Below are positions 3,749 through 32,256 of a stretch of DNA of 56,856 bases, piece by piece. This DNA comes from Eubacteriales bacterium (lineage in GTDB: Bacteria; Bacillota; Clostridia; Monoglobales; Firm-18): contig JAQVDK010000001.1 in NCBI GenBank assembly GCA_028697835.1, positions 1 through 56,856 on the forward strand, in the 5' to 3' direction. Made by a program: the position numbers and the translations under genes. Numbering within the stretch: position 1 is the first letter of the stretch; the number at the start of each line of letters is the position of its first letter. The notes under the pieces were generated by a model, which saw only the letters and a program-made list of their open reading frames with translations, did no database searches and was not told the DNA's origin.

Positions 3749-3813
3749 TATGTATATATAAGAAACATATAGTTAGAGATAGATAAATCAACTCGATTGG
3801 GGGACTGGTTACA

Positions 3814-4089
3814 GTGGCAGAGTCTAAAAAAATTTTGGTTTCATTGCCAAATACTTTGCTGGCTGAGGTGGATGCATTCGTAAGCTGCAGAGGTTTAAGC
3901 AGAAGTGAATTAATTCGCGAGGCTATGAGAGAATACATCAGTCATCGCAAAAAAGCAGAGATAGAAGAAAAATTAAAAGAGGGTTACAAGCTTATGGCGG
4001 AGATTAACTTGGAATGGGCCGAGATGTGTTGCGCAGCAGACACATGTCTGTATTTTGCGTATGAGGAAAAACTTTCGGAGTGTGAATAA
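3814..4089 (+). CDS. mazE: ribbon-helix-helix (CopG-like) antitoxin of the EndoAI/MazE type
   Basis: The 91-aa product has an N-terminal [19 protein letters not shown] strand-helix pattern. The gene sits immediately upstream of, and nearly abutting, the MazF toxin gene. It starts at a GTG after a GGGGGA RBS. Confidence 0.8.
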
Positions 4090-4090
4090 C

Positions 4091-4444
4091 GTGATAGTAA
4101 AAAGGGGAGACATTTTTTACGCAGATTTAAGTCCTGTAGTCGGTTCCGAGCAGGGCGGAATCAGGCCTGTACTTATCGTGCAGAACGATATCGGAAATAA
4201 ATACAGCCCAACAGTCATTGTTGCGGCAGTTACTTCTCAGATTAATAAGGCAAAAATGCCTACACATATCGAGATTGATGCAGCGGCTTATGGACTTGCA
4301 AAAGATTCTGTAATACTTATGGAGCAAATTAGGACCATTGACAAAAAGCGGTTAAAAGAGAAAATCGGTCACATTGACGACGAGCTTATGGCAAAGGTGA
4401 ACGAAGCTCTTGCAATCAGCTTTGGAATAAGCGATTTGTGTTGA
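4091..4444 (+). CDS. mazF: type II toxin, mRNA interferase EndoA/MazF
   Basis: [36 protein letters not shown]...[15 protein letters not shown] is nearly collinear with B. subtilis EndoA (NdoA). The likely start is GTG 4091, 1 nt after the antitoxin stop. The track ORF extends upstream to 4055. Confidence 0.9.
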
Positions 4445-4455
4445 AAGGACTGCAT

Positions 4456-4890
4456 ATGCAAATGAAAAAAGCTGTAATATTTTTGCTGACAGTAATTATA
4501 TTTAGCCAAGGTGCAAAATATTTGCTTGCGGCGCCAGGGGACGCTGACGACCCTGTGGTTACTTTAAGCTACATTAAACAGATACTTTTACCTGATATAG
4601 AGCAAAAAATAAACAGCTCTTCGGCTGCTGTTTTCAAAGTTGTAGATGTGCCGCAAGGTTCAAAGGTTATTTTAGATGCAGGCACCGAAATTATTTTAAG
4701 AATGGGCAGCGCAACGGTTATCGCCACGGAAAAAGGCGGCCTTGCAGATGTTACTTCCGGAGTTGACCTTCAACACGAAAGCGCCGTTCCCGCAAACTCG
4801 CTGCTTATAGCGCCGCTTGCGGACGGACGGGGAATCCATGCCACAGATAATGTTATTTTGATGATTAAAGGTGGATATACAATCCAGTAA
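4456..4890 (+). CDS. secreted protein of unknown function (signal peptide)
   Basis: The N-terminus MQMKKAVIFLLTVIIFSQGAKYLLAAPGD looks like a Sec signal peptide. I recognised no domain. A strong terminator follows. Confidence 0.55.
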   Translation: MQMKKAVIFLLTVIIFSQGAKYLLAAPGDADDPVVTLSYIKQILLPDIEQKINSSSAAVFKVVDVPQGSKVILDAGTEIILRMGSATVIATEKGGLADVTSGVDLQHESAVPANSLLIAPLADGRGIHATDNVILMIKGGYTIQ

Positions 4891-6203: not shown

Positions 6204-6321
6204 CTAAAATAAAAGGGGGGTCTTATACCAATCTTTTGGACCGGTACAGATGTATTTTGTGAGGTCATTAGTAATTATCCCCCTCAATTTCAAAAATTAT
6301 ACAACGCAAAGGAAATTTTTT

Positions 6322-7650
6322 ATGAAAAAAATTTTAGCTGTATGGATTACGAAATTTTTGATATTTGCAGGAAAGCTTGCAGGTAAAAAAGGCTCGTCAA
6401 CTCCGGGGGCGGTTGCCCTTAAAATATGCCCGGATATTTTAAAGTGGCTGTCAGGACAGGTAAAAGGCTCGATTGTTGCAGTGTGCGGAACTAACGGAAA
6501 GACCACCACAAACAACCTCCTCTATTCCATCCTGAAATCTCAAGGAAAAAAGGTTGTATGCAACAATGTTGGTGCAAATATGCTTGAAGGTGTTGCAACA
6601 ACATTTATAAGCAACACAAATTTTTTTGGCAAACTTGATGCTGATTATGCCTGCATAGAAATTGACGAGGTTTCCACAGTCAAAGTCTTTGACCATATGG
6701 TGCCAAACTTTATGATTATTACCAATCTATTTCGTGACCAGCTTGACAGGTACGGTGAAATAGACATTACCATAGACTTTTTAAAACGTGCCATATCCAA
6801 AACGGGCGACATTACACTGATTTTAAATGCAGATGACCCGCTGGTAACTGCATTTGGCAGAGAAACAGGGAAAAAATGCGTTTACTTTGGTGTTGGCGAA
6901 GATGTTGGAGCATCCTTAAACGAAACAAAAGAAGGCAGATTTTGCAGATTTTGCGGCAGCGAGCTTGCCTATCAGTTCTATCATTACAGTCAGCTTGGAA
7001 ACTACGGGTGCATAAAGTGCGGCTTTTCGCGCCCCGCCGCAGATTTTGAAGCTTTAAATGTTGACCTTTCCGACGGTCTTTCATTTACGGTAAATAATCA
7101 AGAAATTTCTGTTGATTACAGGGGCTTTTACAATATTTACAATATTTTGGCGGCATACTCTGCGGCAAGCCTGATTGGAGCAAGCCTTGAAAATGTGCAT
7201 AAGGTGCTGGGTGAATATAAGCCACAAATCGGCAGAATGGAAACCTTCACAATTCACGGAAAGCCGGTTATTCTCAACCTTTCTAAAAATCCTGCAGGAT
7301 TTAACCAGACAATATCTACCATTGCAAGTGATAGCCGCAAAAAAGATATTTTAGTGGTTATAAACGACAACGCCCAAGACGGAAGGGACGTTTCATGGCT
7401 TTGGGATGTGGATTTTGAACGGCTTGGGGCTGTAAACGCTTCAAGCTTTACAGCTAGCGGCATTCGCTTTCATGATGTTTTAGTAAGGTTTAAGTATGCG
7501 CAGCTTGATAATTTCTCATCAGAGGCAGATGTTAAAGCCGCCATATTAAAATGCCTTGAAGGTGACGGCGAGGTTTTATATGTTTTAGTAAATTACACCG
7601 TCTTGTTTTCAACGCAAAAAATCCTCAAATCATTGGAGGGAAATAAATGA
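6322..7650 (+). CDS. murT: lipid II isoglutaminyl synthase, Mur-ligase-like subunit MurT
   Basis: The GTNGKTTT P-loop is present, along with a Cys4 ribbon (CRFCGSEL...CIKCGF) and a C-terminal DUF1727-like tail. The stop overlaps the gatD start as ATGA. ATG 6322 (MKKIL) is preferred over the track start at 6250. Confidence 0.85.
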   Translation: MKKILAVWITKFLIFAGKLAGKKGSSTPGAVALKICPDILKWLSGQVKGSIVAVCGTNGKTTTNNLLYSILKSQGKKVVCNNVGANMLEGVATTFISNTNFFGKLDADYACIEIDEVSTVKVFDHMVPNFMIITNLFRDQLDRYGEIDITIDFLKRAISKTGDITLILNADDPLVTAFGRETGKKCVYFGVGEDVGASLNETKEGRFCRFCGSELAYQFYHYSQLGNYGCIKCGFSRPAADFEALNVDLSDGLSFTVNNQEISVDYRGFYNIYNILAAYSAASLIGASLENVHKVLGEYKPQIGRMETFTIHGKPVILNLSKNPAGFNQTISTIASDSRKKDILVVINDNAQDGRDVSWLWDVDFERLGAVNASSFTASGIRFHDVLVRFKYAQLDNFSSEADVKAAILKCLEGDGEVLYVLVNYTVLFSTQKILKSLEGNK

Positions 7651-8360
7651 AGCTTACCATAGGGCATCTGTATCCCGAACTTTTAAACCTTTACGGCGAC
7701 AGGGGAAACATAATTACCCTTCAAAAGCGGGCGCAGTGGCGAAATATTGAAGTGGAAATCAAGGAATTTAAGTTAAGTGATAAAATAAACTTTGCAGACC
7801 TTGACATAGTATTTTTAGGCGGAGGCTCGGACAAGGAACAGCTTTTAGTTTCAAAAAAGCTAAGCAAAATCAAGTCAAGCTTATCCGGCTATGTAGCGGA
7901 CGACGGCGTAATTATGGCTGTTTGCGGCGGGTTTCAAATATTAGGGCACTACTACAAGCAAAAAGGCGAGCTAATTGACGGTTTGGGAATTTTGGATATT
8001 TTCACGGAAAGCGAAAACAATCGCTTGATTGGAAATGTTATTATAAAAACAGAGCTTTTCAGCCGCCCGATTGTCGGTTTTGAAAACCATGGGGGCAGGA
8101 CTTACCTTGGCAGCTGCCCACCCCTTGGAAAAGTCATATGCGGTTACGGAAACAATGGCAAGGACGGTATGGAAGGGGCCATATACAAAAACGTTATAGG
8201 AACATACCTGCATGGGCCGCTGCTTCCTAAAAACCCCCACCTTTGCGACTATATTCTGCAAAAGGCATTAGAGAGGAAATATCCCGGCGCCACCCTTTCT
8301 CCTTTGGACGACGCAATTGAAATTGCGGCAAATGAATATATCGTCAATCGCTTTGCTTAA
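7647..8360 (+). CDS. gatD: lipid II isoglutaminyl synthase, glutaminase subunit GatD (CobQ-type amidotransferase)
   Basis: The nucleophile motif AVCGGFQ and the downstream GTYLHGP histidine region are present. The gene is translationally coupled to murT. Confidence 0.85.
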   Translation: MKLTIGHLYPELLNLYGDRGNIITLQKRAQWRNIEVEIKEFKLSDKINFADLDIVFLGGGSDKEQLLVSKKLSKIKSSLSGYVADDGVIMAVCGGFQILGHYYKQKGELIDGLGILDIFTESENNRLIGNVIIKTELFSRPIVGFENHGGRTYLGSCPPLGKVICGYGNNGKDGMEGAIYKNVIGTYLHGPLLPKNPHLCDYILQKALERKYPGATLSPLDDAIEIAANEYIVNRFA

Positions 8361-13294: not shown

Positions 13295-13329
13295 GGTCAA
13301 TCGCTACGGCGATTGACCTGTTTGTTTAA
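13295..13329 (+). terminator. Rho-independent terminator after pth
   Basis: The stem is ggtcaatcgc/gcgattgacc (10 bp, perfect) with a tacg loop, followed by TGTTTGTTT. Confidence 0.8.
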
Positions 13330-13386: not shown

Positions 13387-13415
13387 TTGACTAATTCATA
13401 CTTTTTTGATATTAT
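13387..13415 (+). promoter_or_regulatory. promoter of the ndh2-led electron-transfer locus
   Basis: TTGACT (13387-13392), a 17-nt spacer, then TATTAT (13410-13415). A TG at 13407-13408 makes it an extended -10. Confidence 0.55.
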
Positions 13416-13468
13416 ATTGTAAGTTTCGAGCAGGGGCTCTTGAATACTTTATTACAGAGGAGCTTATT

Positions 13469-15448
13469 ATGGAAAAGAAAATTGTTATTATTGGCGCAGG
13501 CTATGGAGGAATTTTGACTGCAAAAAAGCTTGCAAAAAGATTTAAAAAATATCAAAATATAAATATTACTATTATCGACAAAAACCCTTACCATACAATG
13601 CTTACGGAGCTGCATGAGGTTGCGGCAAACAGAGTGGATGATGACAGTATAAAAATAAGCTTGAAAAAGGTTTTTGCAGGCAGGCGTGTAAATGTTATAC
13701 ACGATATTGTAAATAAAATTGATTATGATAAAAAGGTTGTTTTTACTTCCTTGGGCGAATATAATTATGACTATCTTGTTCTTGCCGCCGGCTCAAAGCC
13801 TACTTTTTACGGGATTGAAGGCGCCGAGGAAAATGCTTTTCGCCTATGGTCATACGAAGATGCCATTATCCTTCGAGAACACATTCATGAAATGTTTAGA
13901 AAAGCAGCAGTTGAAACAAATTTGGAGCAAAAGAAAAAACTGCTTTCTTTTTATGTTGTGGGTGCGGGATTTACAGGTGTGGAAATGGTTGGCGAGCTTG
14001 CGGAGTATGTTCCGTACTTGTGTAAAAAGTTTGATTTGGACAGGGATTTAGTTTCGATTTACAACGTGGATATCCTTTCCAGAACTGTGTCGAATTTACC
14101 TGAAAAACTATCCAAAAAAGTTGAAAAACGCTTATCCAAAATGGGCGTTAAATTCAAGCTAAACACCAATGTTGTAGCAATAGGCAAGGATTATATAGAA
14201 ACATCTGCCAACGGAAAATCGTCCCGATACAACACAAACACCGTTATTTGGGCGGCAGGAATCCAGTCCTCCGACATTACGCGAAAAGCCGCAGAAGTTA
14301 TGCAATCTACCAACAGCGGCAGGATTATGGTAGATAAATATCTACGCTCTGTTGATAACGAAAGCGTGTATGTGATTGGCGACAATATGTATTTCGTCCC
14401 CGAGGGTGAAGAAAAGCCCGTTCCTCAAATGGTGGAAAACTGTGAGCAAAGCTCCGACGTAGCGGCTAAAAATATTTATGCCCAGGTAAGCGGTAAAGGA
14501 AACCTTATAGAATACAAGCCTACCTTCCATGGGGTTATGGTAAGCGTGGGCAGCAGATATGGCGTGGCACGGGTTGGTACGCCAAAGATGATGTTTAACC
14601 TGCCTTCGTTTTTAGCTATGTTTGTCAAGCATTTTATAAACATGGTCTATTTTGCGCAGGTTGCAGGCTGGAACAAAGTTTTCAGCTATATGAAGCATGA
14701 GTTTTTTACCATAAGAAATCAGCGTAGCTTTGTTGGCGGGCATTTTTCAAACAGAACTCCCAGTTTTCTGCTTGTGCCACTTAGGGTTTGGCTTGGTCTT
14801 GTATGGCTTTATGAAGGCATTGCAAAAGTATTTGATAAATGGCTTGTCGAGCCTAAGCTTGAAGGCTTTTTTGGCGGAGCAAACAGCTGGTACAACAGTA
14901 TTTTGCAGGCGGCAGGTCAAGCGGTTGCCTTAGACGCTGCCACTTCCGCTACTGCCGAGGCTACTGCCCAGGCCACAGGCGAAGCTGCTGCGGCTGCAGG
15001 AGTGTTGATTTTTAATTGGAACATACTTGGCATATTTAAAGCCATATTCGTAAGCGGCAAAGAACTTGCATCTTCCGCTATAGGCGATTTTGCCTTTAAA
15101 CTTGACGTTCCGCTTATCAATTGGTTTATAGACACTTTAATCATGCCACAGGATACGGTTCAGGTAGTCATGCAAAGCTTTATTGTAATTGCTGAAATTT
15201 TAATCGGCCTTGCGTTGATTGGAGGGCTGTTTACAACTATCGCAGCGGGCGGCTCTTTAATTTTGCAGTTTATGTTTGTAACCACCACAGGACTTTATCT
15301 GTCAACCTTTTGGATGATTTTTGCAGGTGTGGCAGTGCTTATAGGCGCAGGGCGAACTTTTGGGCTTGATTATTATTTTATGCCGCACATAAAGCGTTTA
15401 TGGCAAAAAATACCTTTTATAAGAAAGTTGTATATATATAATGACTAA
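13469..15448 (+). CDS. ndh2: type II NADH dehydrogenase (NDH-2) fused to a C-terminal DoxX/DoxD-like membrane domain
   Basis: Two Rossmann motifs are present (IIGAGYGG and VVGAGFTGVE). The C-terminal ~230 aa are polytopic, with LRVWLGLVWLYEGIAKV and GAGRTFGLDYY. ATG 13469 follows an AGAGGA RBS, and the track start is 13406. Confidence 0.85.
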   Translation: MEKKIVIIGAGYGGILTAKKLAKRFKKYQNINITIIDKNPYHTMLTELHEVAANRVDDDSIKISLKKVFAGRRVNVIHDIVNKIDYDKKVVFTSLGEYNYDYLVLAAGSKPTFYGIEGAEENAFRLWSYEDAIILREHIHEMFRKAAVETNLEQKKKLLSFYVVGAGFTGVEMVGELAEYVPYLCKKFDLDRDLVSIYNVDILSRTVSNLPEKLSKKVEKRLSKMGVKFKLNTNVVAIGKDYIETSANGKSSRYNTNTVIWAAGIQSSDITRKAAEVMQSTNSGRIMVDKYLRSVDNESVYVIGDNMYFVPEGEEKPVPQMVENCEQSSDVAAKNIYAQVSGKGNLIEYKPTFHGVMVSVGSRYGVARVGTPKMMFNLPSFLAMFVKHFINMVYFAQVAGWNKVFSYMKHEFFTIRNQRSFVGGHFSNRTPSFLLVPLRVWLGLVWLYEGIAKVFDKWLVEPKLEGFFGGANSWYNSILQAAGQAVALDAATSATAEATAQATGEAAAAAGVLIFNWNILGIFKAIFVSGKELASSAIGDFAFKLDVPLINWFIDTLIMPQDTVQVVMQSFIVIAEILIGLALIGGLFTTIAAGGSLILQFMFVTTTGLYLSTFWMIFAGVAVLIGAGRTFGLDYYFMPHIKRLWQKIPFIRKLYIYND

Positions 15449-16409
15449 TGATAGAGTTTTAATAAACGACGCTTTTGAAAATGTAAAAGCCGAGGTGGAA
15501 AAAGCTCTTTCCTCCTCCCCTTCCATCATTAAAAGCTATACGCACTATTTGTCATTAGCAAGAGGCAAATTTATAAGGGCATATGCGCTTTTGACATGCA
15601 GCTTGGACTCTGACAACAAAATAAACACCGATGCCGTAAAGCTGGCAACAGCGGTGGAGCTTTTACATTTGGCTACTCTTGTGCATGACGATGTAATTGA
15701 TAATGCAGACACTCGCCGGGGTATCGACACGCTGCAAAAAAGGTTCGGAAAGCGCACCGCCGTTATATGCGGCGACTACCTGTTTTGCCTGGCAATTAAA
15801 AAGGCTTCGGAAATATCCGACCAAAGCAAGTTTAAAAAGCTTGACTTGGCCTTGTATATGGAAAAAATATGTTTAGGTGAGCTAAACCAGCATATAAACA
15901 ACAATAATATTGATTTGTCGATGCGCCAGTATTTAAAAATAATATCGGGAAAAACCGCCGCGTTGTTTGAGGCGTCTTGTTACGGGGGGGCATGTGTTGG
16001 CGGCTTTGACAACAGCGAGCTTAAAAAATACAAAAGGTTTGGGCGATATTTGGGCATGATTTTCCAACTTACGGATGATTGCATTGATTTTGAGGAAACA
16101 AAGGCAAATGCAAAAAAACCTGTGCAATCGGACTATGAACAGGGGGTTATAACCCTTCCTTTGATTTATGCATTTTCTCAAAAAGACCAATTAAAAAGCA
16201 AGGCAAAGGCAAAAAGGCTTTCAAGAGAAGAAATAAACGCCTCTGTTGCTTCTTCGGGCGGCTTGAAGCTTACCAGGCTCCTATCGCAACGCTATTACAA
16301 AAAGGCGGCATTGATTATTGACGATTTAAATGCGGACAAAAGCAAAAAGAATATACTTATGGAAGTTTTGGATAAAGCATTTTACGGTTTGCAGGGTAAA
16401 AAAACATGA
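15441..16409 (+). CDS. trans-polyprenyl diphosphate synthase (DmkB/HepT-like)
   Basis: The first Asp-rich motif is LVHDDVIDNADTRRG and the second is QLTDDCIDF. The gene overlaps ndh2 by 8 nt. Confidence 0.85.
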   Translation: MTNDRVLINDAFENVKAEVEKALSSSPSIIKSYTHYLSLARGKFIRAYALLTCSLDSDNKINTDAVKLATAVELLHLATLVHDDVIDNADTRRGIDTLQKRFGKRTAVICGDYLFCLAIKKASEISDQSKFKKLDLALYMEKICLGELNQHINNNNIDLSMRQYLKIISGKTAALFEASCYGGACVGGFDNSELKKYKRFGRYLGMIFQLTDDCIDFEETKANAKKPVQSDYEQGVITLPLIYAFSQKDQLKSKAKAKRLSREEINASVASSGGLKLTRLLSQRYYKKAALIIDDLNADKSKKNILMEVLDKAFYGLQGKKT

Positions 16410-17308
16410 TTAAACGTTTTTTAAGCTATGTTGAGATTAAAACCAAAATAACAAGCGTATTTGCATTTTTTATGGTGCTGGCTTATTTGTTTAATATAAA
16501 ACAGCCCATAAATTGGAGGCTGTCTGGGGTTTTCTTTGTTTCCATGTTTGTTTTTGACCTGGCAACAACAGCCATAAATAACTATATAGACACAAAAACA
16601 AATCATCAAACCCTACAGTTTAAAAGAAAAAATGCGCTTGCGATTATTGTGGTACTGCTTGCAGTTGCCACTGCTTTTGGCTTGTATCTGGCATACCTTA
16701 CCGACTTTGTCGTACTGCTTTTGGGCGGACTGTGCTTTGCATGCGGCATATTATATACCTTCGGGCCTGTGCCCATCTCCCGCCAACCATATGGAGAGGT
16801 TTTGTCCGGGCTTTTTTACGGATACTTAATACCAACAATAATGCTTTATATAAACATGCCCCACGGCACCTATTTAACCTTAGACTTTAGCTTAGAAAAA
16901 GTAATTTTAAGCATTAACGTTATGCCTTCTATAACTGTTGTACTTTTAGGTTTTTTGCCGTTTTGCGCAACAGCAAACATTATGCTGGCAAATAATATTT
17001 GCGACTTGGAAAAAGATATAACAGTAAAGCGATATACTCTTCCCTTCTATTTGGAAGGCAAATCCATCTACCTTTTTGCAGCAATATACTACTTGACATA
17101 TCCTGCCGCTGCTTTAATGGTTATGCTTAAAATATTACCGCCACTTACTTATCTTTATCTACTTACCATAATTCCTGTACAAAAAAACATAAATACATTT
17201 TTTAAAAAACAAGACAAGAGCGAGACATTTATCGTTTCGGTTAAAAATTATATTATTATAATGGGGACAATGACAATACTTATTTTTGTCAGTGGATTGT
17301 TGAGGTAG
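16406..17308 (+). CDS. UbiA-family aromatic prenyltransferase (MenA/DmkA-like, divergent motif 1)
   Basis: The 300-aa product has about 8-9 TM helices. Motif 1 reads NNYIDTKTN and motif 2 reads DLEKD. The start overlaps the synthetase stop as ATGA. Confidence 0.75.
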   Translation: MIKRFLSYVEIKTKITSVFAFFMVLAYLFNIKQPINWRLSGVFFVSMFVFDLATTAINNYIDTKTNHQTLQFKRKNALAIIVVLLAVATAFGLYLAYLTDFVVLLLGGLCFACGILYTFGPVPISRQPYGEVLSGLFYGYLIPTIMLYINMPHGTYLTLDFSLEKVILSINVMPSITVVLLGFLPFCATANIMLANNICDLEKDITVKRYTLPFYLEGKSIYLFAAIYYLTYPAAALMVMLKILPPLTYLYLLTIIPVQKNINTFFKKQDKSETFIVSVKNYIIIMGTMTILIFVSGLLR

Positions 17309-17312
17309 TGCA

Positions 17313-17702
17313 ATGTTTTTCAAAAAAAACGATATCGTAATATTGCTTATAGCAATTGTTATCGCCACGGCAGCAATATTTGCATATAATCATTTTGCAA
17401 AACAGCTTCCGGTGAAGGCAGAAATTTATCATAACGGTACTTTGGTGAAAACCGTAAGTTTAGCTTTAGGTGTTGATAAGACCTTTTCAGTCCCCGAGGA
17501 GCCGCAGGTGGTGTTTCGCCTGCATCCTGACGGTAAAATCAGTTTCGAAAAATCCGATTGCCCCGACCGCATTTGCATAAGCAGCGGAAAGCTCGGCAGG
17601 GCGGGACAGTCGGCGGCGTGTTTGCCCAATGGTTTAGTTTTGAAAATTGTGCCTGTCGGCAAGGAGCAAAAAGATGATGTAGATATTGTCATTGGTCATT
17701 AG
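17313..17702 (+). CDS. single-pass membrane protein with a NusG domain II-like (DUF1312-type) fold
   Basis: An N-terminal TM helix (IVILLIAIVIATAAIFAY) is followed by the CPDRICISSG...AACLPNGLVLKI signature that I associate with NusG_II proteins. Confidence 0.7.
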   Translation: MFFKKNDIVILLIAIVIATAAIFAYNHFAKQLPVKAEIYHNGTLVKTVSLALGVDKTFSVPEEPQVVFRLHPDGKISFEKSDCPDRICISSGKLGRAGQSAACLPNGLVLKIVPVGKEQKDDVDIVIGH

Positions 17703-17718
17703 GAAAGGTATATAAAAC

Positions 17719-18240
17719 ATGGATAAATCTGAAAAAAATATACGAGCTACCAAAAGGCTTGTTTTGACCGCCCTTTTGTTCGGCACATCCCTTATACTTG
17801 CCTTTGTTGAAGGATTCTTTCCTGCTATTCCCATTCCGGGCGTTAAATTGGGGCTGTCAAACGTGGTTGTAATGTATGCCTTGTTTTTTCTTAGCAAAAA
17901 ACAAGCCTTTTCAATTGCGATTTTAAAAGGTATGTTTGTTTTTGCAACAAGAGGGCCCGTTGCAGGTGTTTTAAGCCTTAGCGGCGGCATTGTGTCCCTT
18001 GTGTCCATGATTATACTTTCAATCATAACCAAAAGAAATGCCTCGTATTTAATTAGCAGTGTAACAGGCGCCGTATTTCATAATGTTGGGCAATTTATGG
18101 CAGTGAGCCTAATTTATTCCTTTGCTGAAATATGGATATATTTACCTTGGCTTGTAATTTTGGGGATAGCCGCAGGCGCTTTTACATCTGTCTTGCTTAA
18201 GATTATTTTACCTGCTCTTGACAAGAGCGGTTTAAAATAA
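17719..18240 (+). CDS. Gx transporter / heptaprenyl-diphosphate-synthase-component-I-family membrane protein
   Basis: The 173-aa product has about 5 TM helices and the PGVKLGLSNVVVMYALFF motif typical of that family. Such proteins are usually paired with NusG_II proteins. Confidence 0.7.
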   Translation: MDKSEKNIRATKRLVLTALLFGTSLILAFVEGFFPAIPIPGVKLGLSNVVVMYALFFLSKKQAFSIAILKGMFVFATRGPVAGVLSLSGGIVSLVSMIILSIITKRNASYLISSVTGAVFHNVGQFMAVSLIYSFAEIWIYLPWLVILGIAAGAFTSVLLKIILPALDKSGLK

Positions 18241-18293
18241 AATAAAGGGAAAAGCTATAATTATCTTATTAATCTTATTTAGGAGGAGTTTTT

Positions 18294-19334
18294 ATGAAAA
18301 AGACTTTGTTAGCTCTAATTAGCTTTGCTATTGTAATTGGCCTTCTTGCAGGATGCAGGGCAAACCAGCCTTCGCAGCCTTCTCCATCACCTTCCCAAGG
18401 GGCTGATGACGGTCAAATCAAAACAGGCTATGCGGTTATTTCATCCGCCGAAAAATCCGCTGCAAAAGAAAACGGTGGAACAGCTCAGGTAGATTCAACC
18501 ATTGTCGGTGTTATTGTTGACGGCAGCGGCAAAATCCTAAACTGCGCCATAGATGCTGTTCAAACAATAGTTGAATTTGACGGCGAAGGAAAGCTTGTCA
18601 CCCCAAAAGACACTATCGTTCCCACAAAAACAGAGCTTGGCACAGAATACGGAATGAAAAAAGCGTCAAAAATAGGAAAGGAATGGGACGAGCAAATTAA
18701 GGAGTTTGCCAAATATGTAGTAGGAAAAACCGTAGACGAAGTTAAAGGAATTGCCGTTTCGGCTGAAGGCGCTCCTACCGACGCTGAGCTTTCGTCCACA
18801 GTAACCATTAAAATAGGCGGCTACGTAGCTGCTATTGAAAAGGCAGTGAAAAATGCCAAGCCAATTGGCTCCGGCGCCAATGACAAAATTGGCATAGGCG
18901 TTTCAACCAATATTAAAAATTCAAAAGATGCTACTTCTGATGCCGACGGCGTTGTGCAGGCATATTCAACCTACTCTATTTTGACTCTTGACAGCAGCGA
19001 CAAAATAACCGCTTCCATCATAGACGCCTCGCAGGTGGAAGTTAAGTTTTCCAAAGATGGAAAAATTACCTCCGATACAAAAGCGGCTCAAAAAACAAAA
19101 AATGAGCTTGGCACGGAATACGGAATGAAAAAAGCGTCCGGCATTGGCAAGGAATGGAATGAACAAGCAGAAGCTTTTGCAAAATATACAGTAGGAAAAA
19201 CTGTTTCTGAAGTAAACGGAATTGCAATTGACGAAACCACCGTACCCCAAGTTGATGAGCTAAAAAGCAGTGTAACGATTAAAGTTGGGGATTTGCTGAC
19301 TGCTATTGAAAAAGCAGGAGCCAACGCAAAATAA
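18294..19334 (+). CDS. lipoprotein with two tandem FMN_bind-like domains (PplA-like candidate flavoprotein)
   Basis: The lipobox is LLAGC. Two ~150-aa repeats each contain K[TN]ELGTEYGMKKAS...GKEW...GKTV.EV.GIA...S[ST]VTIK.G...AIEKA. The gene is adjacent to apbE. Confidence 0.7.
   Translation: MKKTLLALISFAIVIGLLAGCRANQPSQPSPSPSQGADDGQIKTGYAVISSAEKSAAKENGGTAQVDSTIVGVIVDGSGKILNCAIDAVQTIVEFDGEGKLVTPKDTIVPTKTELGTEYGMKKASKIGKEWDEQIKEFAKYVVGKTVDEVKGIAVSAEGAPTDAELSSTVTIKIGGYVAAIEKAVKNAKPIGSGANDKIGIGVSTNIKNSKDATSDADGVVQAYSTYSILTLDSSDKITASIIDASQVEVKFSKDGKITSDTKAAQKTKNELGTEYGMKKASGIGKEWNEQAEAFAKYTVGKTVSEVNGIAIDETTVPQVDELKSSVTIKVGDLLTAIEKAGANAK
18633..19138 (+). repeat. intragenic direct repeat marking the domain duplication
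   Basis: The 35-mer gagcttggcacagaatacggaatgaaaaaagcgtc at 18633-18667 recurs at 19104-19138 with one mismatch. Confidence 0.85.
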
Positions 19335-19349
19335 TTTATCAAACTGTTT

Positions 19350-19378
19350 CGGGGGCAACAAATGTTGCTCCCGTTTTT
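19350..19378 (+). terminator. intrinsic terminator or attenuating hairpin between the lipoprotein gene and apbE
   Basis: The stem is cgggggcaac/gttgctcccg (10 bp, one G-U) with an aaat loop, followed by TTTTT. Confidence 0.6.
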
Positions 19379-19416
19379 GTAAGTTGCAACATAAGCTAAA
19401 TGTTTGAGGTGAGAGC

Positions 19417-20460
19417 ATGACAAAAAGGGCTGTTGGCATTTTTTTAAGCTTTGTAATTTTAACCATGCCTCTTTCGGGCTGCAAAACGGAAAAAAAGCGT
19501 TATCAAGCACAATTTTTAAATCTATTCGACACGGTTACTGAAATTATTGCATACACAAATAACAAAGAAGAGTTTGAAATATATGCCAAGATGATACATG
19601 ACGAGCTTAAAACATATCATCAGCTTTACGACATATACGAAGATTATGAGGGAATTGTAAACTTAAAAACCGTTAACGAAAACGCCGGAAAAGAGCCTGT
19701 CAAGGTGGACAAGAAAATTATCGACCTTCTTAAATTTGCAAAATATGCCTATGACCTAACCGGCGGCAAAACCAATGTGGCCTTGGGCGCTGTTTTGAAA
19801 ATATGGCACAGCTATAGGCAGGATGGAACAGACAATCCCCAAAATGCCAAGCTTCCTCCTTTGGAAATGCTTGAAAATGCGAATTTACACAGTAATATTG
19901 ACGATGTTGTGATAGATGAAATAAATTCCACGGTATTTTTCAAGGATAAAGATTTAAAGCTTGATGTTGGCGCGGTGGCAAAAGGCTATGCCGTGGAACA
20001 GGTAGCTAAATTTGCAAGTGACATGGGCGTATCTTCAATGCTGATAAGCGTTGGAGGTAATATATGTGCTATCGGAAACAAGGACGAAGATACTCCTTGG
20101 AATGTGGGTATTTTAAACCCCAACAAGGAAGACGAGCAAAAAAACCTTTACGTTGTAAATATTAAAGATATGGCTATGGTTACAAGCGGTGATTATCAGC
20201 GTACATACACCGTCGGCGGCAAGCAGTATCACCATATTATAAACCCCCAAACCCTGTACCCGGCAGAGTATTTTACCGCAGTGACCGTAATATGTGAAGA
20301 TTCGGGCTTGGCGGACGCACTGTCCACAGCACTTTTTAACATGCCCTTTGAAGAAGGCTTTGCATTTGTCGAGGCTATTCCAAAGGTGGAGGCTGTTTGG
20401 CTTTTTAAAGACAAAACAACCAAATACACCTTTGGCTTTGAAGGTTTTATCAAAGAATAA
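19417..20460 (+). CDS. apbE: FAD:protein FMN transferase (ApbE/FmnB family) lipoprotein
   Basis: The lipobox is PLSGC. ApbE motifs GAVAKGYA, TSGDYQR and HHIINPQT are present. Confidence 0.85.
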   Translation: MTKRAVGIFLSFVILTMPLSGCKTEKKRYQAQFLNLFDTVTEIIAYTNNKEEFEIYAKMIHDELKTYHQLYDIYEDYEGIVNLKTVNENAGKEPVKVDKKIIDLLKFAKYAYDLTGGKTNVALGAVLKIWHSYRQDGTDNPQNAKLPPLEMLENANLHSNIDDVVIDEINSTVFFKDKDLKLDVGAVAKGYAVEQVAKFASDMGVSSMLISVGGNICAIGNKDEDTPWNVGILNPNKEDEQKNLYVVNIKDMAMVTSGDYQRTYTVGGKQYHHIINPQTLYPAEYFTAVTVICEDSGLADALSTALFNMPFEEGFAFVEAIPKVEAVWLFKDKTTKYTFGFEGFIKE

Positions 20461-29694: not shown

Positions 29695-31406
29695 TTACCT
29701 TAAAGCGAATTTTAAAGTTTGTAAACCCATATAAAAAATATATTTTAATGTCAATAATTTTCGCATTGCTAAGTGTATCGTTTACTCTTTTAACGCCTGT
29801 GCTTATAGGAATGGGTGTTGACCTTGTCATTGGGGCGGGCAATGTTGATTTTAAGGGCCTTTTAAAAATCCTTTTTTATTTGCTTGCAAGTGCTTGTTTA
29901 GCTTCCGTGTTTCAGTGGATGATGTCCGTTTCTACAAACAAGCTTACTTACAACACATCACGGGATATGCGAAAGCTCGCCTTTGAAAGGCTTGTTAAAA
30001 TGCCGCTGGGGTTTGTTGACAACCACCAGCACGGCGACATTATAAGCCGCATAACCGCCGATATAGAGCAGGTTGCAGACGGGCTTTTGCAAGGCTTTAC
30101 ACAGCTTTTTTCAGGCATAGTCACTATTTTGGGTACCCTTGCATTTATGTTTTTTATAAATCCATATATTACCCTTGTTGTGATTATCCTTACCCCTCTT
30201 TCGTTTTTCATTTCAACACGCATTGCGAAAATGTCGTATGATATGTTTTCCAAGCAGTTTCAAGTTCAAGGGGAGCTGACCTCATATATAAACGAAATGG
30301 TAGGCAATCAGCGGGTTATAAAAGCGTTCAGATATGAAGATAAGGCTCAGGCAACGTTTGAAGAAATAAACAGCCGGCTTTACGGCTATGGGGTAAAAGC
30401 ACAGTTTTATTCCTCGCTTACAAATCCATCCACACGATTTGTAAATGGGCTTGTTTATGCCGCTGTGGGAATTGCAGGGGCAATTTTGGCGGTTTCGGGG
30501 CTTTTGACGGTTGGGCAAATAACCAGTTTTTTGAATTATGCAAATCAATACACCAAGCCCTTTAACGAGATTTCCGGGGTTATTACTCAGCTTCAATCGG
30601 CAATTGCAGGAGCAGAAAGAATTTTTTACCTGATTGATGGAAAAACTGAATCTGACGACACAGAAAAGCTGGAAATATCGGACTGCAAGGGATATGTTTC
30701 TTTTGAAAATGTGGATTTTTCATACAACAAGAAAAAAACGCTCATAAGAAACTTTAACTTAAAAGTAAGCCCCGGAATGAGGGTTGCAATAGTCGGTCCG
30801 ACAGGCAGCGGCAAAACCACTTTGATAAACCTTTTAATGCGTTTTTACGATACGGACAAAGGCACAATTTGGGTTGACGAAACAGACATAAAAAACATTA
30901 AAAGAAACAGCCTTCGCCGCCTATACGGCATGGTGTTGCAGGAAACATGGCTTTTTGAAGGCACGATAAAAGAAAATATCGCCTATGGAAAAAAAGATGC
31001 TTCCATGGACGATATTATAAAAGCCGCAAAGGCGGCATATGCTCATAATTTTATTGTAAAGCTCCCAAATGGGTATGACACCATGATTGTTGGAAGCGGG
31101 GATAATTTATCCCAAGGTCAAAGGCAGCTTCTTTGTATAGCCCGGGCAATGCTAATGAGTCCTCCTATGCTTATTTTGGACGAGGCAACAAGCAGCATTG
31201 ACACCCTGACGGAAATAAGAATCCAAGAAGCCTTCCAAAAGCTGATGCAAGGCAAAACAAGCTTTATAGTTGCCCATCGACTTTCGACCATACGAAATTC
31301 CGACATAATTTTGGTAATGAAGGACGGTCAAATAGCCGAGCAGGGTAACCACCAACAGCTTATGGCAAATCGTGGCTTTTACTTTCAACTAAACGATGTA
31401 ACATAG
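29691..31406 (+). CDS. ABC exporter half-transporter (TMD-NBD), consensus-site subunit
   Basis: Walker A is GPTGSGKTT, Walker B is LILDEATS and the H-loop is VAHRLST. The signature is non-canonical (LSQGQRQ). The start overlaps the partner's stop by 4 nt. Confidence 0.85.
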   Translation: MITLKRILKFVNPYKKYILMSIIFALLSVSFTLLTPVLIGMGVDLVIGAGNVDFKGLLKILFYLLASACLASVFQWMMSVSTNKLTYNTSRDMRKLAFERLVKMPLGFVDNHQHGDIISRITADIEQVADGLLQGFTQLFSGIVTILGTLAFMFFINPYITLVVIILTPLSFFISTRIAKMSYDMFSKQFQVQGELTSYINEMVGNQRVIKAFRYEDKAQATFEEINSRLYGYGVKAQFYSSLTNPSTRFVNGLVYAAVGIAGAILAVSGLLTVGQITSFLNYANQYTKPFNEISGVITQLQSAIAGAERIFYLIDGKTESDDTEKLEISDCKGYVSFENVDFSYNKKKTLIRNFNLKVSPGMRVAIVGPTGSGKTTLINLLMRFYDTDKGTIWVDETDIKNIKRNSLRRLYGMVLQETWLFEGTIKENIAYGKKDASMDDIIKAAKAAYAHNFIVKLPNGYDTMIVGSGDNLSQGQRQLLCIARAMLMSPPMLILDEATSSIDTLTEIRIQEAFQKLMQGKTSFIVAHRLSTIRNSDIILVMKDGQIAEQGNHQQLMANRGFYFQLNDVT

Positions 31407-32016: not shown

Positions 32017-32190
32017 TAAAAAAACAAAAATCCTGATGAAACATCAGGACAACACAAAAAAAGCATACTTCTTCCATCCAGACTTTACTGTCGGCTTCGG
32101 AATTTCACCGAATCAACCATAAGATGCATATACTTATGGCTCGTGGGCTATACCACCGGTAGGGAATTTCACCCGTCCCTGAAGTTTCAT
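32017..32190 (-). promoter_or_regulatory. FMN riboswitch (RFN element) with terminator expression platform
   Basis: The minus strand reads cttcagggacgGGTGAAATTCCCTACCGGTGGTatAGCCCacGAGCc...ttcGGTGAAATTCCgaaGCCGACAGTaaAGTCTGGATGgaAGAAG. The hairpin tcctgat/atcagga plus a T-run follows at 32017-32049. Confidence 0.9.
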
Positions 32191-32256
32191 CTATATTTTA
32201 ACCCTTGTTTTAGTTTTTGTCAATATCTTTTTAAAAATTTGGCAATAATAATTCCG

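What the first reader, a model, noticed from the sequence alone, without database searches (positions are those of the whole stretch)
13387..20460. Seven-gene flavin/quinone extracytosolic electron-transfer locus, a divergent relative of the Listeria EET system
A terminator (13295-13329) and an extended -10 promoter (13387-13415) sit just upstream of seven co-directional genes that overlap or are tightly spaced. In order they are an NDH-2 with a membrane tail, a polyprenyl synthetase (DDVID and DDCID motifs) and a UbiA prenyltransferase. Then come a NusG_II single-pass protein, a Gx/HepS-I-type membrane protein, a dual-domain lipoprotein (lipobox LLAGC) and an ApbE FMN transferase lipoprotein (lipobox LSGC). 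The combination of a dedicated NADH dehydrogenase, dedicated quinone prenylation, an ApbE and a two-domain surface lipoprotein defines the flavin-based extracellular electron transfer locus of Listeria monocytogenes (ndh2, dmkA, dmkB, pplA, fmnB, eetA, eetB; Light et al. 2018). In this window the gene order differs. The NDH-2 tail looks DoxX/DoxD-like. The UbiA and lipoprotein signature motifs are non-canonical. The two accessory membrane slots are filled by a NusG_II/Gx pair whose biochemical role is unknown. No DHNA (men) biosynthesis genes are in the window, so the quinone head group may be scavenged. I infer that this is a functional but mechanistically uncharacterised surface redox module in an anaerobic Firmicute.
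Basis: partly seen in the sequence, partly recalled or inferred. Interest (0 to 1): 0.75.

Follow-up and report, generated by a model that had tools for sequence, protein, structure and literature searches.

The report
Clostridial flavin-based extracellular electron transfer operon
This is a clostridial copy of the known Listeria-type system that passes electrons from NADH out to the cell surface; its parts are mostly ordinary, but its surface lipoprotein is unusual and its NADH dehydrogenase carries an apparently unreported flavin-attachment motif.

Summary
The seven co-directional genes, the promoter, the terminator and both lipoboxes are real. Six proteins match the Listeria monocytogenes EET proteins directly by BLASTP: Ndh2 (36% identity over the full length, tail included), DmkB, DmkA, EetA, EetB and FmnB/ApbE.

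The NusG_II/Gx pair is EetA/EetB, and EetB is a characterised FAD exporter. The DoxD-like tail is normal for EET Ndh2. The odd UbiA motifs are the DmkA signature.

The real difference is the lipoprotein. It has no Pfam, NCBIfam, PDB or BLASTP match to PplA/FMN_bind. Only profile methods link it: hhalign gives 72% and aligns T171 with the flavinylated T143 of PplA. It belongs to a large unannotated family (1,832 representative clusters) whose motif is [DE]LxSSVT instead of DxxSGAT. It fits the published "FMN-bind2" description.

The gene order is conserved in 39 of 55 fully flanked relatives. Méheust 2021 already lists a Roseburia example as "EET".

New side finding: the outward-facing loop of the Ndh2 tail carries ApbE flavinylation motifs in 54 of 57 clostridial homologues (97 motifs against 1.9 expected). 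Listeria and Enterococcus carry them too (WLQxxTSGAS). I found no report of this.

The parts
13295..13329 (+). Intrinsic-terminator-like hairpin that ends the upstream pth gene and marks the 5' boundary of the operon
   Evidence: 10-bp stem with 6 GC pairs, followed by TGTTTGTTTA.
13387..13415 (+). Sigma-70-like promoter with an extended -10 (TTGACT-17-TGaTATTAT)
   Evidence: This is a consensus match only; such sites are frequent in this AT-rich DNA.
13469..15448 (+). ndh2: type II NADH dehydrogenase (residues 1-400) fused to a DoxD/DoxX-like membrane tail (residues 401-659)
   Evidence: Pyr_redox_2 5e-38. 36% identity over the full length to L. monocytogenes Ndh2, E 6e-128; tail alone 30%, E 4e-22. 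DoxD 1.5e-4, just below threshold; 15 of 31 homologous tails hit DoxD at E<=0.01. RBS and ATG.
14933..14953 (+). DAATSAT (residues 489-495): an ApbE-type flavinylation motif D-x-x-[ST]-[GSA]-A-[ST] in the acidic, variable loop between the first and second tail helices. The loop is inferred to be extracytosolic.
   Evidence: Motif present in 54 of 57 homologous tails; 97 motifs against 1.9 expected from shuffles; none outside the loop. Net charge is +4.1 before TM1, -4.1 in the loop and +4.7 at the C-terminus.
15441..16409 (+). dmkB: long-chain polyprenyl diphosphate synthase (DDVID and DDCID motifs)
   Evidence: polyprenyl_synt 4e-56. HepT-like 1e-61, below the equivalog cut-off. 37% identity to Listeria DmkB, E 1e-51.
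16406..17308 (+). dmkA: DHNA polyprenyltransferase of the DmkA subtype of UbiA/MenA
   Evidence: UbiA 1e-16. NF004752 1e-68 and PRK13387 3e-66, both below cut-off. 36-37% identity to Enterococcus and Listeria DmkA. Signature motifs shared.
17313..17702 (+). eetA: single-pass membrane protein with an extracytosolic NusG_II domain and a conserved CxDxxC...CLP motif
   Evidence: NusG_II 2e-20. BLASTP to Listeria EetA 5e-8 and to the Enterococcus NusG_II protein 8e-10. Alignment.
17719..18240 (+). eetB: Gx transporter / PF07456, the ECF-S-like FAD exporter subunit
   Evidence: PF07456 2e-31. 32% identity to Listeria EetB, E 5e-18. Conserved PGxKLGLxN and HNVGQ. Function from PMC9973259.
18294..19334 (+). 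pplA-like lipoprotein (lipobox LLAGC, Cys21) with two ~150-aa FMN-bind2-like domains (43-189 and 192-346)
   Evidence: No Pfam, NCBIfam or PDB sequence hit. hhalign against PplA: 72%, E 3.4e-5, collinear. Family profile hits the FMN_bind protein 2KZX at E 0.011. AF2 model pLDDT 89.8, pTM 0.83. 1,832 representative clusters.
18795..18806 (+). STVT: candidate flavinylation site T171 in domain 1 (context ELSSTVT)
   Evidence: T171 aligns with the flavinylated T143 of PplA.
19266..19277 (+). SSVT: candidate flavinylation site T328 in domain 2 (context ELKSSVT)
   Evidence: S326, V327 and T328 are invariant in alignment A1.
19350..19383 (+). GC-rich hairpin followed by a T run, between the lipoprotein and ApbE genes; a probable partial terminator or attenuator
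   Evidence: 10-bp stem, 7 GC pairs, then TTTTTG. Fold energy -17.8 kcal/mol. A comparable hairpin plus T run occurs in 34 of 71 related loci.
19417..20460 (+). fmnB/apbE: lipoprotein FAD:protein FMN transferase (lipobox LSGC)
   Evidence: ApbE 2e-69. 28% identity to Listeria FmnB over 350 aa, E 2e-41. Matches PDB 7ESA, with TSG..R, YHHI and DxLST aligned to the FmnB stretches that should hold Ser257/Arg262, His273 and Asp301; that residue mapping is mine.

Best explanation
The locus is a single-operon, clostridial version of the flavin-based extracellular electron transfer (FLEET/EET) system of Listeria, Enterococcus and Lactiplantibacillus. Homology shows that the operon encodes seven functions. 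There is an NADH dehydrogenase with a quinone-domain-like membrane tail (Ndh2). Two enzymes prenylate DHNA to demethylmenaquinone (DmkB and DmkA). EetB is the FAD-exporting ECF-S subunit, and EetA is its conserved partner. ApbE/FmnB is a surface FMN transferase. The seventh product is a two-domain surface lipoprotein in the PplA position. The mechanism that follows is inferred. Cytosolic NADH reduces the FAD of Ndh2, and Ndh2 reduces membrane DMK. EetB exports FAD, working with an ECF-T/A module encoded elsewhere. ApbE uses that FAD to attach FMN to T171 and T328 of the lipoprotein, and probably to T495 in the outward loop of the Ndh2 tail. Electrons then hop from quinol to the tail-loop FMN, on to the lipoprotein FMNs, and finally to free flavins, Fe(III) or extracytosolic reductases. 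This regenerates NAD+ for a fermentative anaerobe. The hairpin after the lipoprotein gene probably keeps ApbE, which is catalytic, at a lower level than the lipoprotein, which is needed stoichiometrically.
For: Six of the seven proteins match the Listeria EET proteins by BLASTP and the Enterococcus ones as well. Pfam architectures equal those of the canonical Lactiplantibacillus cluster tabulated by Meheust 2021. The locus meets that paper's operational definition of EET. DmkA, EetA and EetB signature motifs are shared. The ApbE stretches that contain FmnB's reported catalytic residues are conserved. The seven-gene order is kept in 39 of 55 fully flanked related loci, Ndh2+lipoprotein+ApbE in 53 of 55, and ApbE lies just downstream of the lipoprotein in 74 of 76. 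For the lipoprotein: hhalign against PplA is collinear and puts T171 on PplA T143 and an acidic residue at -6. The terminal T/S of the motif is near-invariant over 573 domains, and canonical SGAT/AGAT variants occur inside the family. Family members give sub-threshold FMN_bind hits over the same region, and one member is fused to a true FMN_bind domain. G-to-A and A-to-V changes in the motif still allow about 50% flavinylation (PMC12052999). The 2/4/6-domain versions and the long beta-strands fit the published FMN-bind2 subtype.
Against: No Pfam or NCBIfam model, no PDB sequence and no BLASTP search links the lipoprotein to FMN_bind or PplA. Foldseek with the full model and with a single domain returns no FMN_bind structure; the best hit is IscU at E~0.01 and TM 0.33-0.39. 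Part of the hhalign score comes from the aligned signal peptides. SSVT changes two motif positions at once, and that combination is untested. No ECF-T/A gene and no men gene lies in the window, so FAD export and the source of the quinone head group are unverified. Nine of the 55 loci lack eetA/eetB altogether (another has eetB displaced and another lacks only eetA), 4 lack dmkA and 3 lack dmkB, so not every part is obligatory. No activity data exist for any clostridial locus of this kind.
Confidence: 0.8

Rival explanations
1. The main ApbE substrate of the operon is the Ndh2 tail loop, which carries the canonical motif, and not the lipoprotein. In this reading the lipoprotein's degenerate SSVT site is unmodified. 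The lipoprotein would act as a non-covalent docking or flavin/quinone-binding partner, for example by cradling the FMN tethered to the Ndh2 loop or by binding free flavin shuttles.
For: The canonical D-x-x-[ST]-[GSA]-A-[ST] motif is in the Ndh2 loop in 54 of 57 homologues. The lipoprotein family mostly has SSVT or ASVT. The lipoprotein has no FMN_bind HMM or fold hit. A 7-residue motif in an exposed loop is sufficient for ApbE.
Against: The Thr/Ser at the lipoprotein site is near-invariant across 573 domains, with a conserved acidic residue at -6. That is hard to explain without modification. It aligns with the modified Thr of PplA. The A-to-V and G-to-A substitutions are tolerated individually. 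Non-flavinylated FMN-binding domains bind flavin weakly (PMC8238504).
Confidence: 0.2
2. The module is not mainly a mineral or electrode reductase. It would be a general extracytosolic electron supply that feeds flavinylated reductases (of the fumarate/urocanate-reductase type) encoded elsewhere, or reduces oxygen, peroxide or iron for assimilation, as reported for EET components in Listeria and Enterococcus.
For: The components are the same as in Listeria, where flavinylated fumarate reductase takes electrons from chain components encoded elsewhere (PMC8238504). Meheust 2021 links flavinylation clusters to iron assimilation and to fumarate-reductase-like enzymes. The locus itself encodes no terminal reductase.
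Against: No such reductase or iron transporter lies in the 57-kb window. A dedicated two-flavin lipoprotein is conserved next to ApbE, as PplA is where EET to iron is the read-out.
Confidence: 0.35
3. The ApbE and EetAB genes serve the Rnf complex, whose RnfG and RnfD need flavinylation. They would merely be co-located with a respiratory NADH:quinone segment, and the lipoprotein would be unrelated to redox chemistry.
For: eetB co-localises with Rnf genes in 572 Clostridia genomes (PMC9973259). The lipoprotein has no recognised domain.
Against: No rnf genes are in the window or in the flanks of the related loci examined. The lipoprotein-ApbE adjacency holds in 74 of 76 loci and Ndh2 is present in 53 of 55. 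The remote homology to PplA keeps the motif register.
Confidence: 0.07

Closest known systems
Listeria monocytogenes EET locus (fmnA-dmkA-fmnB-pplA / ndh2-eetA-eetB-dmkB; Light et al. 2018), fetched here as L081
   Same: Ndh2 with a DoxD-like tail, DmkA, DmkB, EetA, EetB and FmnB are all present and significantly similar (28-37% identity). A two-domain lipoprotein sits next to ApbE. Both lipoproteins and both ApbEs have lipoboxes.
   Different: Here there is one co-directional operon instead of two divergent units. There is no fmnA (ECF-T). The lipoprotein has no BLASTP or Pfam similarity to PplA, its domains are about 150 aa instead of about 120, its candidate sites are 157 residues apart instead of 122, and its motif is ELxSSVT instead of [ED]xVSGAT. 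The Ndh2 loop motif is DAATSAT here and WLQTAATSGAS in Listeria.
Lactiplantibacillus and Enterococcus FLEET loci (Meheust 2021 Supplementary file 1; L082, L083)
   Same: The Pfam set is identical for six genes: polyprenyl_synt, PF07456, NusG_II, Pyr_redox_2+DoxD, ApbE and UbiA.
   Different: Those loci carry an FMN_bind x2 PplA and adjacent ECF A/A'/T genes. The window has neither.
Roseburia sp900548205 cluster, listed as 'EET' in Meheust 2021 Supplementary file 1
   Same: It has UbiA, a 659-aa Ndh, polyprenyl_synt, a 362-aa lipoprotein with no Pfam or KEGG assignment, ApbE, NusG_II and PF07456. This is the same clostridial variant, and it has already been catalogued.
   Different: The gene order differs slightly (eetA/eetB after apbE, ubiA divergent). 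The paper does not flag or discuss the lipoprotein. That its lipoprotein belongs to the g6 family is inferred from its size, position and lack of annotation; I could not compare the sequences.
FMN-bind2 domain subtype (Huang et al. 2024, mSystems; example NTW96865.1)
   Same: The domains are about 150-160 aa and come in even numbers (2, 4 or 6). They have extended beta-strands and are predicted as a compact two-domain unit. They were found by BLAST rather than by Pfam, and no InterPro id is listed.
   Different: I could not obtain NTW96865.1, so sequence identity with that class is untested. The paper does not mention an SSVT-type motif or a link to EET loci in the text I read.
NqrB/RnfD: flavinylated integral membrane subunits of NQR and RNF
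   Same: They set a precedent for ApbE attaching FMN to a membrane protein of an NADH-linked or quinone-linked complex, beside a flavinylated soluble-domain partner (NqrC/RnfG). This parallels the proposed pairing of the Ndh2 tail and the lipoprotein.
   Different: The fold is unrelated. In Ndh2 the motif sits in a variable, low-complexity loop and can be repeated up to five times.

Membership tests
Listeria-type flavin-based EET (FLEET) locus | NDH-2 with a C-terminal membrane (DoxD-like) domain orthologous to Ndh2 | tested here: met
   36% identity over 666 columns to Listeria Ndh2, E 6e-128; tail alone E 4e-22. Pyr_redox_2+DoxD is the canonical architecture.
Listeria-type flavin-based EET (FLEET) locus | DmkA (DHNA prenyltransferase) and DmkB (polyprenyl synthase) | tested here: met
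   g3 against DmkA E 4e-31, and against Enterococcus menA_2 E 5e-54. g2 against DmkB E 1e-51. DmkA signature motifs are shared.
Listeria-type flavin-based EET (FLEET) locus | EetA (NusG_II, single TM helix) and EetB (PF07456) | tested here: met
   Pfam 2e-20 and 2e-31. BLASTP 5e-8 and 5e-18 to the Listeria proteins. Alignments.
Listeria-type flavin-based EET (FLEET) locus | Extracytosolic ApbE/FmnB with the catalytic residues | tested here: met
   ApbE 2e-69. E 2e-41 to FmnB. Lipobox LSGC. TSG..R, YHHI and DxLST are conserved against 7ESA. The numbering match to Ser257/Arg262/His273/Asp301 is my inference.
Listeria-type flavin-based EET (FLEET) locus | PplA: a lipoprotein with two Pfam FMN_bind domains, each carrying [S/T]GA[S/T] | tested here: not met
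   No FMN_bind hit at E<=10. BLASTP to PplA E 1.1. The motifs are STVT and SSVT.
Listeria-type flavin-based EET (FLEET) locus | A two-domain surface lipoprotein remotely homologous to PplA, with Thr at the flavinylation position | tested here: inconclusive
   hhalign 72%, E 3.4e-5, with T171 on PplA T143. Foldseek finds no FMN_bind fold.
Listeria-type flavin-based EET (FLEET) locus | FmnA (ECF-T) and ECF ATPases in or beside the locus | tested here: not met
   No CbiQ or ECF ABC_tran gene appears among the window ORFs of 150 aa or more. They may lie elsewhere in the genome.
Listeria-type flavin-based EET (FLEET) locus | Operational definition of Meheust 2021: an NADH dehydrogenase (K03885) with a TM helix inside an ApbE/FMN_bind gene cluster | tested here: met
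   Definition. g1 has hydrophobic helices and lies 4 kb from g7 ApbE. K03885 itself was not scored; NDH-2 identity rests on Pyr_redox_2 and the Listeria Ndh2 match.
Listeria-type flavin-based EET (FLEET) locus | Reduction of extracellular Fe(III), flavins or electrodes that depends on the locus | not testable with these tools
   This needs the strain or heterologous expression.
FMN_bind (PF04205) | Significant match to the Pfam model | tested here: not met
   None for g6. Relatives P0239 and P0153 score only 0.048 and 0.029, below the cut-off.
FMN-bind2 subtype (Huang 2024) | A domain of about 160 aa with an extended beta-sheet, in paired copies that form one unit, and missed by Pfam | tested here: met
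   Domains are 147 and 155 aa with strands of 14-16 residues, and the two-domain model has pTM 0.83. The family includes 4-domain and 6-domain proteins. Description.
FMN-bind2 subtype (Huang 2024) | Sequence similarity to the reference protein NTW96865.1 | not testable with these tools
   Only the accession is given, and the sequence could not be fetched.
DoxX/DoxD membrane domain (Pfam clan) | Match to DoxD or DoxX above the gathering score | tested here: inconclusive
   22.2 bits against a cut-off of 22.7. Of 31 homologous tails, 15 hit DoxD, 10 MauE and 5 DoxX at E<=0.01. Precomputed DoxX/DoxD hits appear on Bacilli tails.
ApbE substrate (flavinylation motif D-x-x-[S/T]-G-A-[S/T]) | Motif present on an extracytosolic segment | tested here: met
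   Ndh2 loop DAATSAT (has S where the canonical motif has G), conserved in 54 of 57 tails against 1.9 motifs expected. The outside location is inferred from charge bias.
ApbE substrate (flavinylation motif D-x-x-[S/T]-G-A-[S/T]) | Covalent FMN actually attached | not testable with these tools
   This needs co-expression and mass spectrometry.

The most novel reading that the evidence does not exclude
The EET-type NADH dehydrogenase is itself an ApbE substrate. One to five FMNs would be covalently tethered to the outward-facing loop of its DoxD-like tail, and they would form the missing electron path from membrane demethylmenaquinol to the surface flavoproteins (PplA, the clostridial FMN-bind2 lipoprotein, and flavinylated reductases). 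This would hold for FLEET systems in general, because the motif is also conserved in Listeria, Enterococcus and Bacillaceae homologues (WLQxxTSGAS). It would fill the gap left when EetB proved to be a FAD exporter and an eetA deletion had no phenotype. Published Listeria proteomics searched trypsin digests for threonine flavinylation only. That would miss the Listeria site, which ends in serine and appears to lie on a long tryptic peptide with no Lys/Arg around it.
Probability: 0.45. Interest if true: 0.8.

Novelty: new variant of a known kind. Interest (0 to 1): 0.55.

Why it matters
EET loci of this kind let fermentative Firmicutes, gut Lachnospiraceae and Oscillospiraceae among them, dispose of electrons outside the cell. 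The clostridial variant is widespread: 556 confirmed loci in one scan, and 1,832 representative clusters of the lipoprotein family. Its surface flavoprotein is nevertheless invisible to Pfam-based surveys, so flavinylation censuses undercount substrates there. The conserved flavinylation motif in the Ndh2 tail gives a concrete, cheap-to-test answer to how electrons leave the membrane quinone pool in this pathway.

Tried and rejected
- Pfam and NCBIfam at E up to 10, and phmmer against PDB, found nothing for the lipoprotein.
- Foldseek against PDB with the full model and with a single domain gave only weak IscU-like hits and no FMN_bind structure. I treat this as inconclusive, not as evidence of an IscU relationship (TM 0.33-0.39, rmsd 7-10 A).
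- The representative search listed only close family members among its best 150, so it gave no bridge to FMN_bind.
- Light 2018 (PMC6221200) and Light 2019 (PMC6936397) are not held. Statements about those papers rest on citing papers or on my own knowledge.
- Two literature searches were too broad to be useful.
- Searches for any report of Ndh2/Ndh3 flavinylation found none.
- My first loop-boundary regex for the Ndh2 tails failed on half of the sequences. I replaced it with fixed offsets.
- I considered that the loop motif is a by-product of Ala/Ser/Thr/Gly-rich composition. I rejected this on the shuffle control and on its conservation while the rest of the loop varies freely.
- I considered the TTG at 13406 as the start of g1. 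I rejected it in favour of the ATG at 13469, which has a proper RBS and aligns with residue 3 of Listeria Ndh2.

Full report
**Observation**

The first gene starts at the ATG at 13469, which follows an AGAGGAG ribosome-binding site. The mechanical TTG at 13406 is not the start. g1/g2 and g2/g3 overlap, and the remaining gaps are 4 to 82 nt.

The scan finds the upstream hairpin (13295-13318 plus a T-rich tail) and the TTGACT-17-TATTAT promoter with a TG extension (13387-13415). Such consensus sites are common in this AT-rich DNA, with 33 found against 23 expected.

Pfam supports six assignments: Pyr_redox_2 5e-38, polyprenyl_synt 4e-56, UbiA 1e-16, NusG_II 2e-20, Hpre_diP_synt_I/PF07456 2e-31 and ApbE 2e-69. 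The NDH-2 tail scores 22.2-22.3 bits on DoxD against a cut-off of 22.7. The lipoprotein g6 matches nothing in Pfam or NCBIfam, and no PDB sequence, even at E=10.

The exact g6 protein is on record as a hypothetical protein of a "MAG: Eubacteriales bacterium", on a contig of 56,856 bases.

**Direct comparison with the reference system**

The PLSDB "plasmid" collection holds mislabelled chromosome pieces of Listeria monocytogenes and megaplasmids of Enterococcus gilvus and E. raffinosus. All of them carry the EET locus.

BLASTP of the window proteins against the Listeria proteins gives:

| Window gene | Listeria protein | Identity | E-value |
|---|---|---|---|
| g1 | Ndh2 (666 columns, full length) | 36% | 6e-128 |
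| g1 tail only | Ndh2 tail | 30% | 4e-22 |
| g2 | DmkB | 37% | 1e-51 |
| g3 | DmkA | 37% | 4e-31 |
| g4 | EetA | 32% over 38 aa | 5e-8 |
| g5 | EetB | 32% | 5e-18 |
| g7 | FmnB | 28% | 2e-41 |
| g6 | PplA | not significant | 1.1 |

The Enterococcus proteins give the same picture.

NCBI annotates the Enterococcus genes in the EetA and EetB slots as "NusG domain II-containing protein" and "Gx transporter family protein". It annotates the Listeria ones as EetA and "flavinylation system FAD exporter subunit EetB".

Rivera-Lugo et al. 2023 showed that EetB (PF07456) is the ECF-S subunit that exports FAD for FmnB. They also found that a clean eetA deletion has no EET phenotype, and that eetA and eetB co-occur in 3,328 genomes.

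The "non-canonical" UbiA motifs of g3 (TAINNYID; ANIMLANNICDLEKDI..RYTLPF) are almost letter-for-letter those of Enterococcus and Listeria DmkA. The stretches TSG..R, YHHI and DxLST of g7 align with the parts of FmnB (PDB 7ESA) that should hold the reported residues Ser257, Arg262, His273 and Asp301. That residue mapping is mine.

**Co-conservation**

A genome scan with the g6 family found 556 confirmed loci and kept the 80 best. They come from Ruminiclostridium, Anaerovoracaceae, Caproiciproducens, Lachnospiraceae, Oscillospiraceae, Sinanaerobacter and others.

Fifty-five loci have enough flank on both sides:
- 39 carry all seven genes in the window's order.
- 53 carry Ndh2, the lipoprotein and ApbE.
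- 9 lack eetA/eetB altogether (5 with and 4 without dmkA); one more has eetB displaced downstream, and one lacks only eetA.
- 4 lack dmkA and 3 lack dmkB.
- ApbE lies just downstream of the lipoprotein in 74 of the 76 loci that have room for it.

These loci were selected by similarity to g6, so the figures describe this clade only.

The variant has already been catalogued. Méheust's EET sheet lists a Roseburia cluster with UbiA, a 659-aa Ndh, polyprenyl_synt, a 362-aa lipoprotein with no Pfam or KEGG assignment, ApbE, NusG_II and PF07456.

**What the lipoprotein is**

g6 has two repeats, residues 43-189 and 192-346. It belongs to a very conserved family with a mean column identity of 68%. The family has 1,832 representative clusters at E<=1e-3. 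It includes proteins of 641-991 aa that contain two or three of the two-domain units. AlphaFold models are confident: pLDDT 89.8 and pTM 0.83 for the whole protein, and 93.6 for domain 2. Each domain has three long beta-strands followed by helices.

Evidence that the domains are diverged FMN-binding domains:
- The family profile hits PDB 2KZX at E 0.011, aligning SSVT with SGAT. That fragment of 2KZX is itself FMN_bind (1.6e-5). A domain HMM hits a 2KZX-like protein at 3e-9.
- Over 573 domain instances the site reads [DE]-L-x-[SA]-[SG]-[VCA]-[TS]. SSVT occurs 235 times and ASVT 118 times. AGCT (34), SSAT (7), SGAT (5) and AGAT (3) also occur. The final T/S is almost never lost.
- Relatives with AGAT-like sites give sub-threshold FMN_bind hits across the whole domain (E 0.03-0.05). 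One relative fuses a true FMN_bind domain to two family domains.
- hhalign of the family against a PplA alignment gives 72% probability and E 3.4e-5. It is collinear over 217 columns, places T171 on PplA T143, and aligns the acidic residue at -6. PMC8906456 gives T143 and T265 as the flavinylated residues of PplA.
- The ApbE review reports that the 7-residue motif D-x-x-[S/T]-G-A-[S/T] is sufficient. G-to-A or A-to-V still gives about 50% flavinylation, and D-to-A has a minor effect.

Evidence against: Foldseek returns no FMN_bind structure for either model; the best hit is IscU at E~0.01 and TM 0.33-0.39. Part of the hhalign score also comes from the aligned signal peptides.

Huang et al. 2024 describe an "FMN-bind2" subtype. 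It is about 160 aa, found in two or four copies, with an extended beta-sheet that pairs two domains into one pseudo-symmetric unit. It was found by BLAST rather than Pfam, and no InterPro id is listed. g6 fits that description. I could not fetch the reference protein to confirm this.

**The Ndh2 tail**

While checking the DoxD assignment I aligned 31 homologous tails. The variable Ala/Gly/Ser/Thr-rich loop between the first and second hydrophobic helices carries ApbE-type motifs. Examples are DGTSGAT, DAVSSAT, DAVSAAT and DAVTAAT. Up to five tandem copies occur (L036, L073).

In a census of 57 tails, 54 have at least one [DE]xx[ST][GSA]A[ST] in the loop. There are 97 motifs against 1.9 expected from composition-preserving shuffles, and none occurs outside the loop. 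The three exceptions have near-motifs (DAAAGAT, DGTSQAT). In the window the motif is DAATSAT, residues 489-495, nt 14933-14953.

The segment before the first helix has net charge +4.1, the loop -4.1 and the C-terminus +4.7. The first helix carries what I recall, untested here, as the DoxX TM1 signature (L-R...G...G..K). By the positive-inside rule the loop faces outward, where ApbE works. This topology is inferred, not shown.

The same position in Bacilli carries [S/T]GA[S/T]. Listeria has WLQTAATSGAS, and Enterococcus has WLQEQVTTGAS followed by EATTAAT. Of 54 database homologues of the Listeria tail, 34 have WLQ-x(2-6)-[ST][GS]A[ST], and most of the rest are fragments. Several Bacillus and Niallia homologues are free-standing proteins of about 215 aa.

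I found no report of Ndh2 flavinylation. I could not read the 2018 and 2019 primary papers. The Listeria proteomics in PMC9973259 searched trypsin digests for threonine flavinylation only. The Listeria site ends in serine, and there is no Lys or Arg for some distance on either side of it. The site could therefore have been missed.

**Mechanism**

Homology shows that the operon encodes NADH oxidation, DMK prenylation, FAD export, FMN transfer and a surface two-domain protein.

The rest is inferred. Electrons would pass from NADH to the FAD of Ndh2, then to DMK, then to FMN on the tail loop, then to the two FMNs of the lipoprotein, and finally to external acceptors. The hairpin after g6 is present in 34 of 71 related loci. 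It would keep ApbE less abundant than its substrate.

An FMN riboswitch (32062-32190, - strand, 117.8 bits) sits in front of an ECF-S gene (31360-31968, - strand), 11 kb downstream. This suggests that the organism imports riboflavin.

No men, ECF-T or ECF-A genes are in the window. That says little for a 57-kb fragment.

**Verdict**

The locus is a genuine member of the FLEET/EET kind in a clostridial arrangement that is already catalogued, so the locus itself is not new. Two things are not in the literature I could read. One is the PplA-position lipoprotein family with a [DE]LxSSVT site. The other is the conserved flavinylation motif in the Ndh2 tail. The second applies to the well-studied Listeria system too, and it makes the open step from quinone to surface flavin directly testable.

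Noticed in passing
window 14933-14953 (g1 residues 489-495); L001-L080 Ndh2 tails; L081:7453-9339; L082:6444-8396: The loop after the first tail helix of EET-type Ndh2 carries 1-5 ApbE flavinylation motifs. They occur in 54 of 57 clostridial tails (97 motifs against 1.9 expected). Listeria, Enterococcus and Bacillaceae have WLQxxTSGAS at the same place. I found no published mention.
   Followed up: yes
window 32062-32190 (-) and 31360-31968 (-): An FMN riboswitch (RF00050, 117.8 bits) lies directly upstream of an ECF-transporter S component (PF12822, 1.4e-38). This looks like a RibU-type riboflavin importer, 11 kb from the EET operon. The + strand ORF 32143-32733 (PRC barrel) overlaps the riboswitch by about 48 nt, so its real start is probably later.
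   Followed up: partly
window 19350-19383; g6-g7 spacers of L001-L080: A GC-rich hairpin plus T run lies between the lipoprotein and ApbE genes. A similar hairpin (-10 kcal/mol or stronger, followed by T4+) occurs in 34 of 71 related loci, which suggests conserved partial termination.
   Followed up: partly
window 17313-17702 (g4); L081:9515-9949; L082:8527-8940: EetA proteins from Clostridia, Listeria and Enterococcus share three cysteines in the extracytosolic NusG_II domain (CxDxxC ... CLP). This could be a metal or disulfide site in a protein whose role is still unknown.
   Followed up: no
P0124, P0125-P0130, P0138, P0162, P0210 (family relatives); P0146: The lipoprotein family includes 4-domain and 6-domain proteins (641-991 aa). 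One protein fuses a bona fide FMN_bind domain to two family domains. Some lineages use AGCT, ASCS or AQCS at the site instead of SSVT.
   Followed up: partly
P0281, P0284, P0286, P0292 (Bacillus and Niallia): Homologues of the Ndh2 tail exist as free-standing proteins of about 215 aa that keep the WLQTxTSGAS motif. The tail therefore appears to be an independent module.
   Followed up: no
L081 (NZ_LR134400.1) and NZ_CP030101.1 in the 'plasmids' collection: Records labelled as Listeria plasmids carry ribosomal protein operons and the chromosomal EET locus. They are chromosome pieces filed as plasmids. In L081 the dmkA region (3800-4860) has no listed gene, and its longest ATG-started ORF is only 167 aa, so the gene may be disrupted in that strain.
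   Followed up: no
window 40356-48287 (-): A 2,643-aa protein combines glycosyltransferase family 2, a glucoamylase-like domain and GH94 domains. That is the architecture of cyclic beta-1,2-glucan synthases, which is unusual in a clostridial MAG.
   Followed up: no
window 35704-40230 (-): A cyanophycin cluster: cyanophycin synthetase (860 aa), a Peptidase_S51 cyanophycinase-like gene and an amidohydrolase (possibly an isoaspartyl dipeptidase).
   Followed up: no
window 6250-8360 (+): A MurT-like ligase (MurT_C 4e-32) is followed by a GATase_3 protein. This is the MurT/GatD pair that amidates peptidoglycan glutamate.
   Followed up: no
L059 and L071 (Mobilitalea sibirica); L057: Some genomes carry a second, orphan copy of the lipoprotein gene with no Ndh2 or ApbE nearby.
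   Followed up: no
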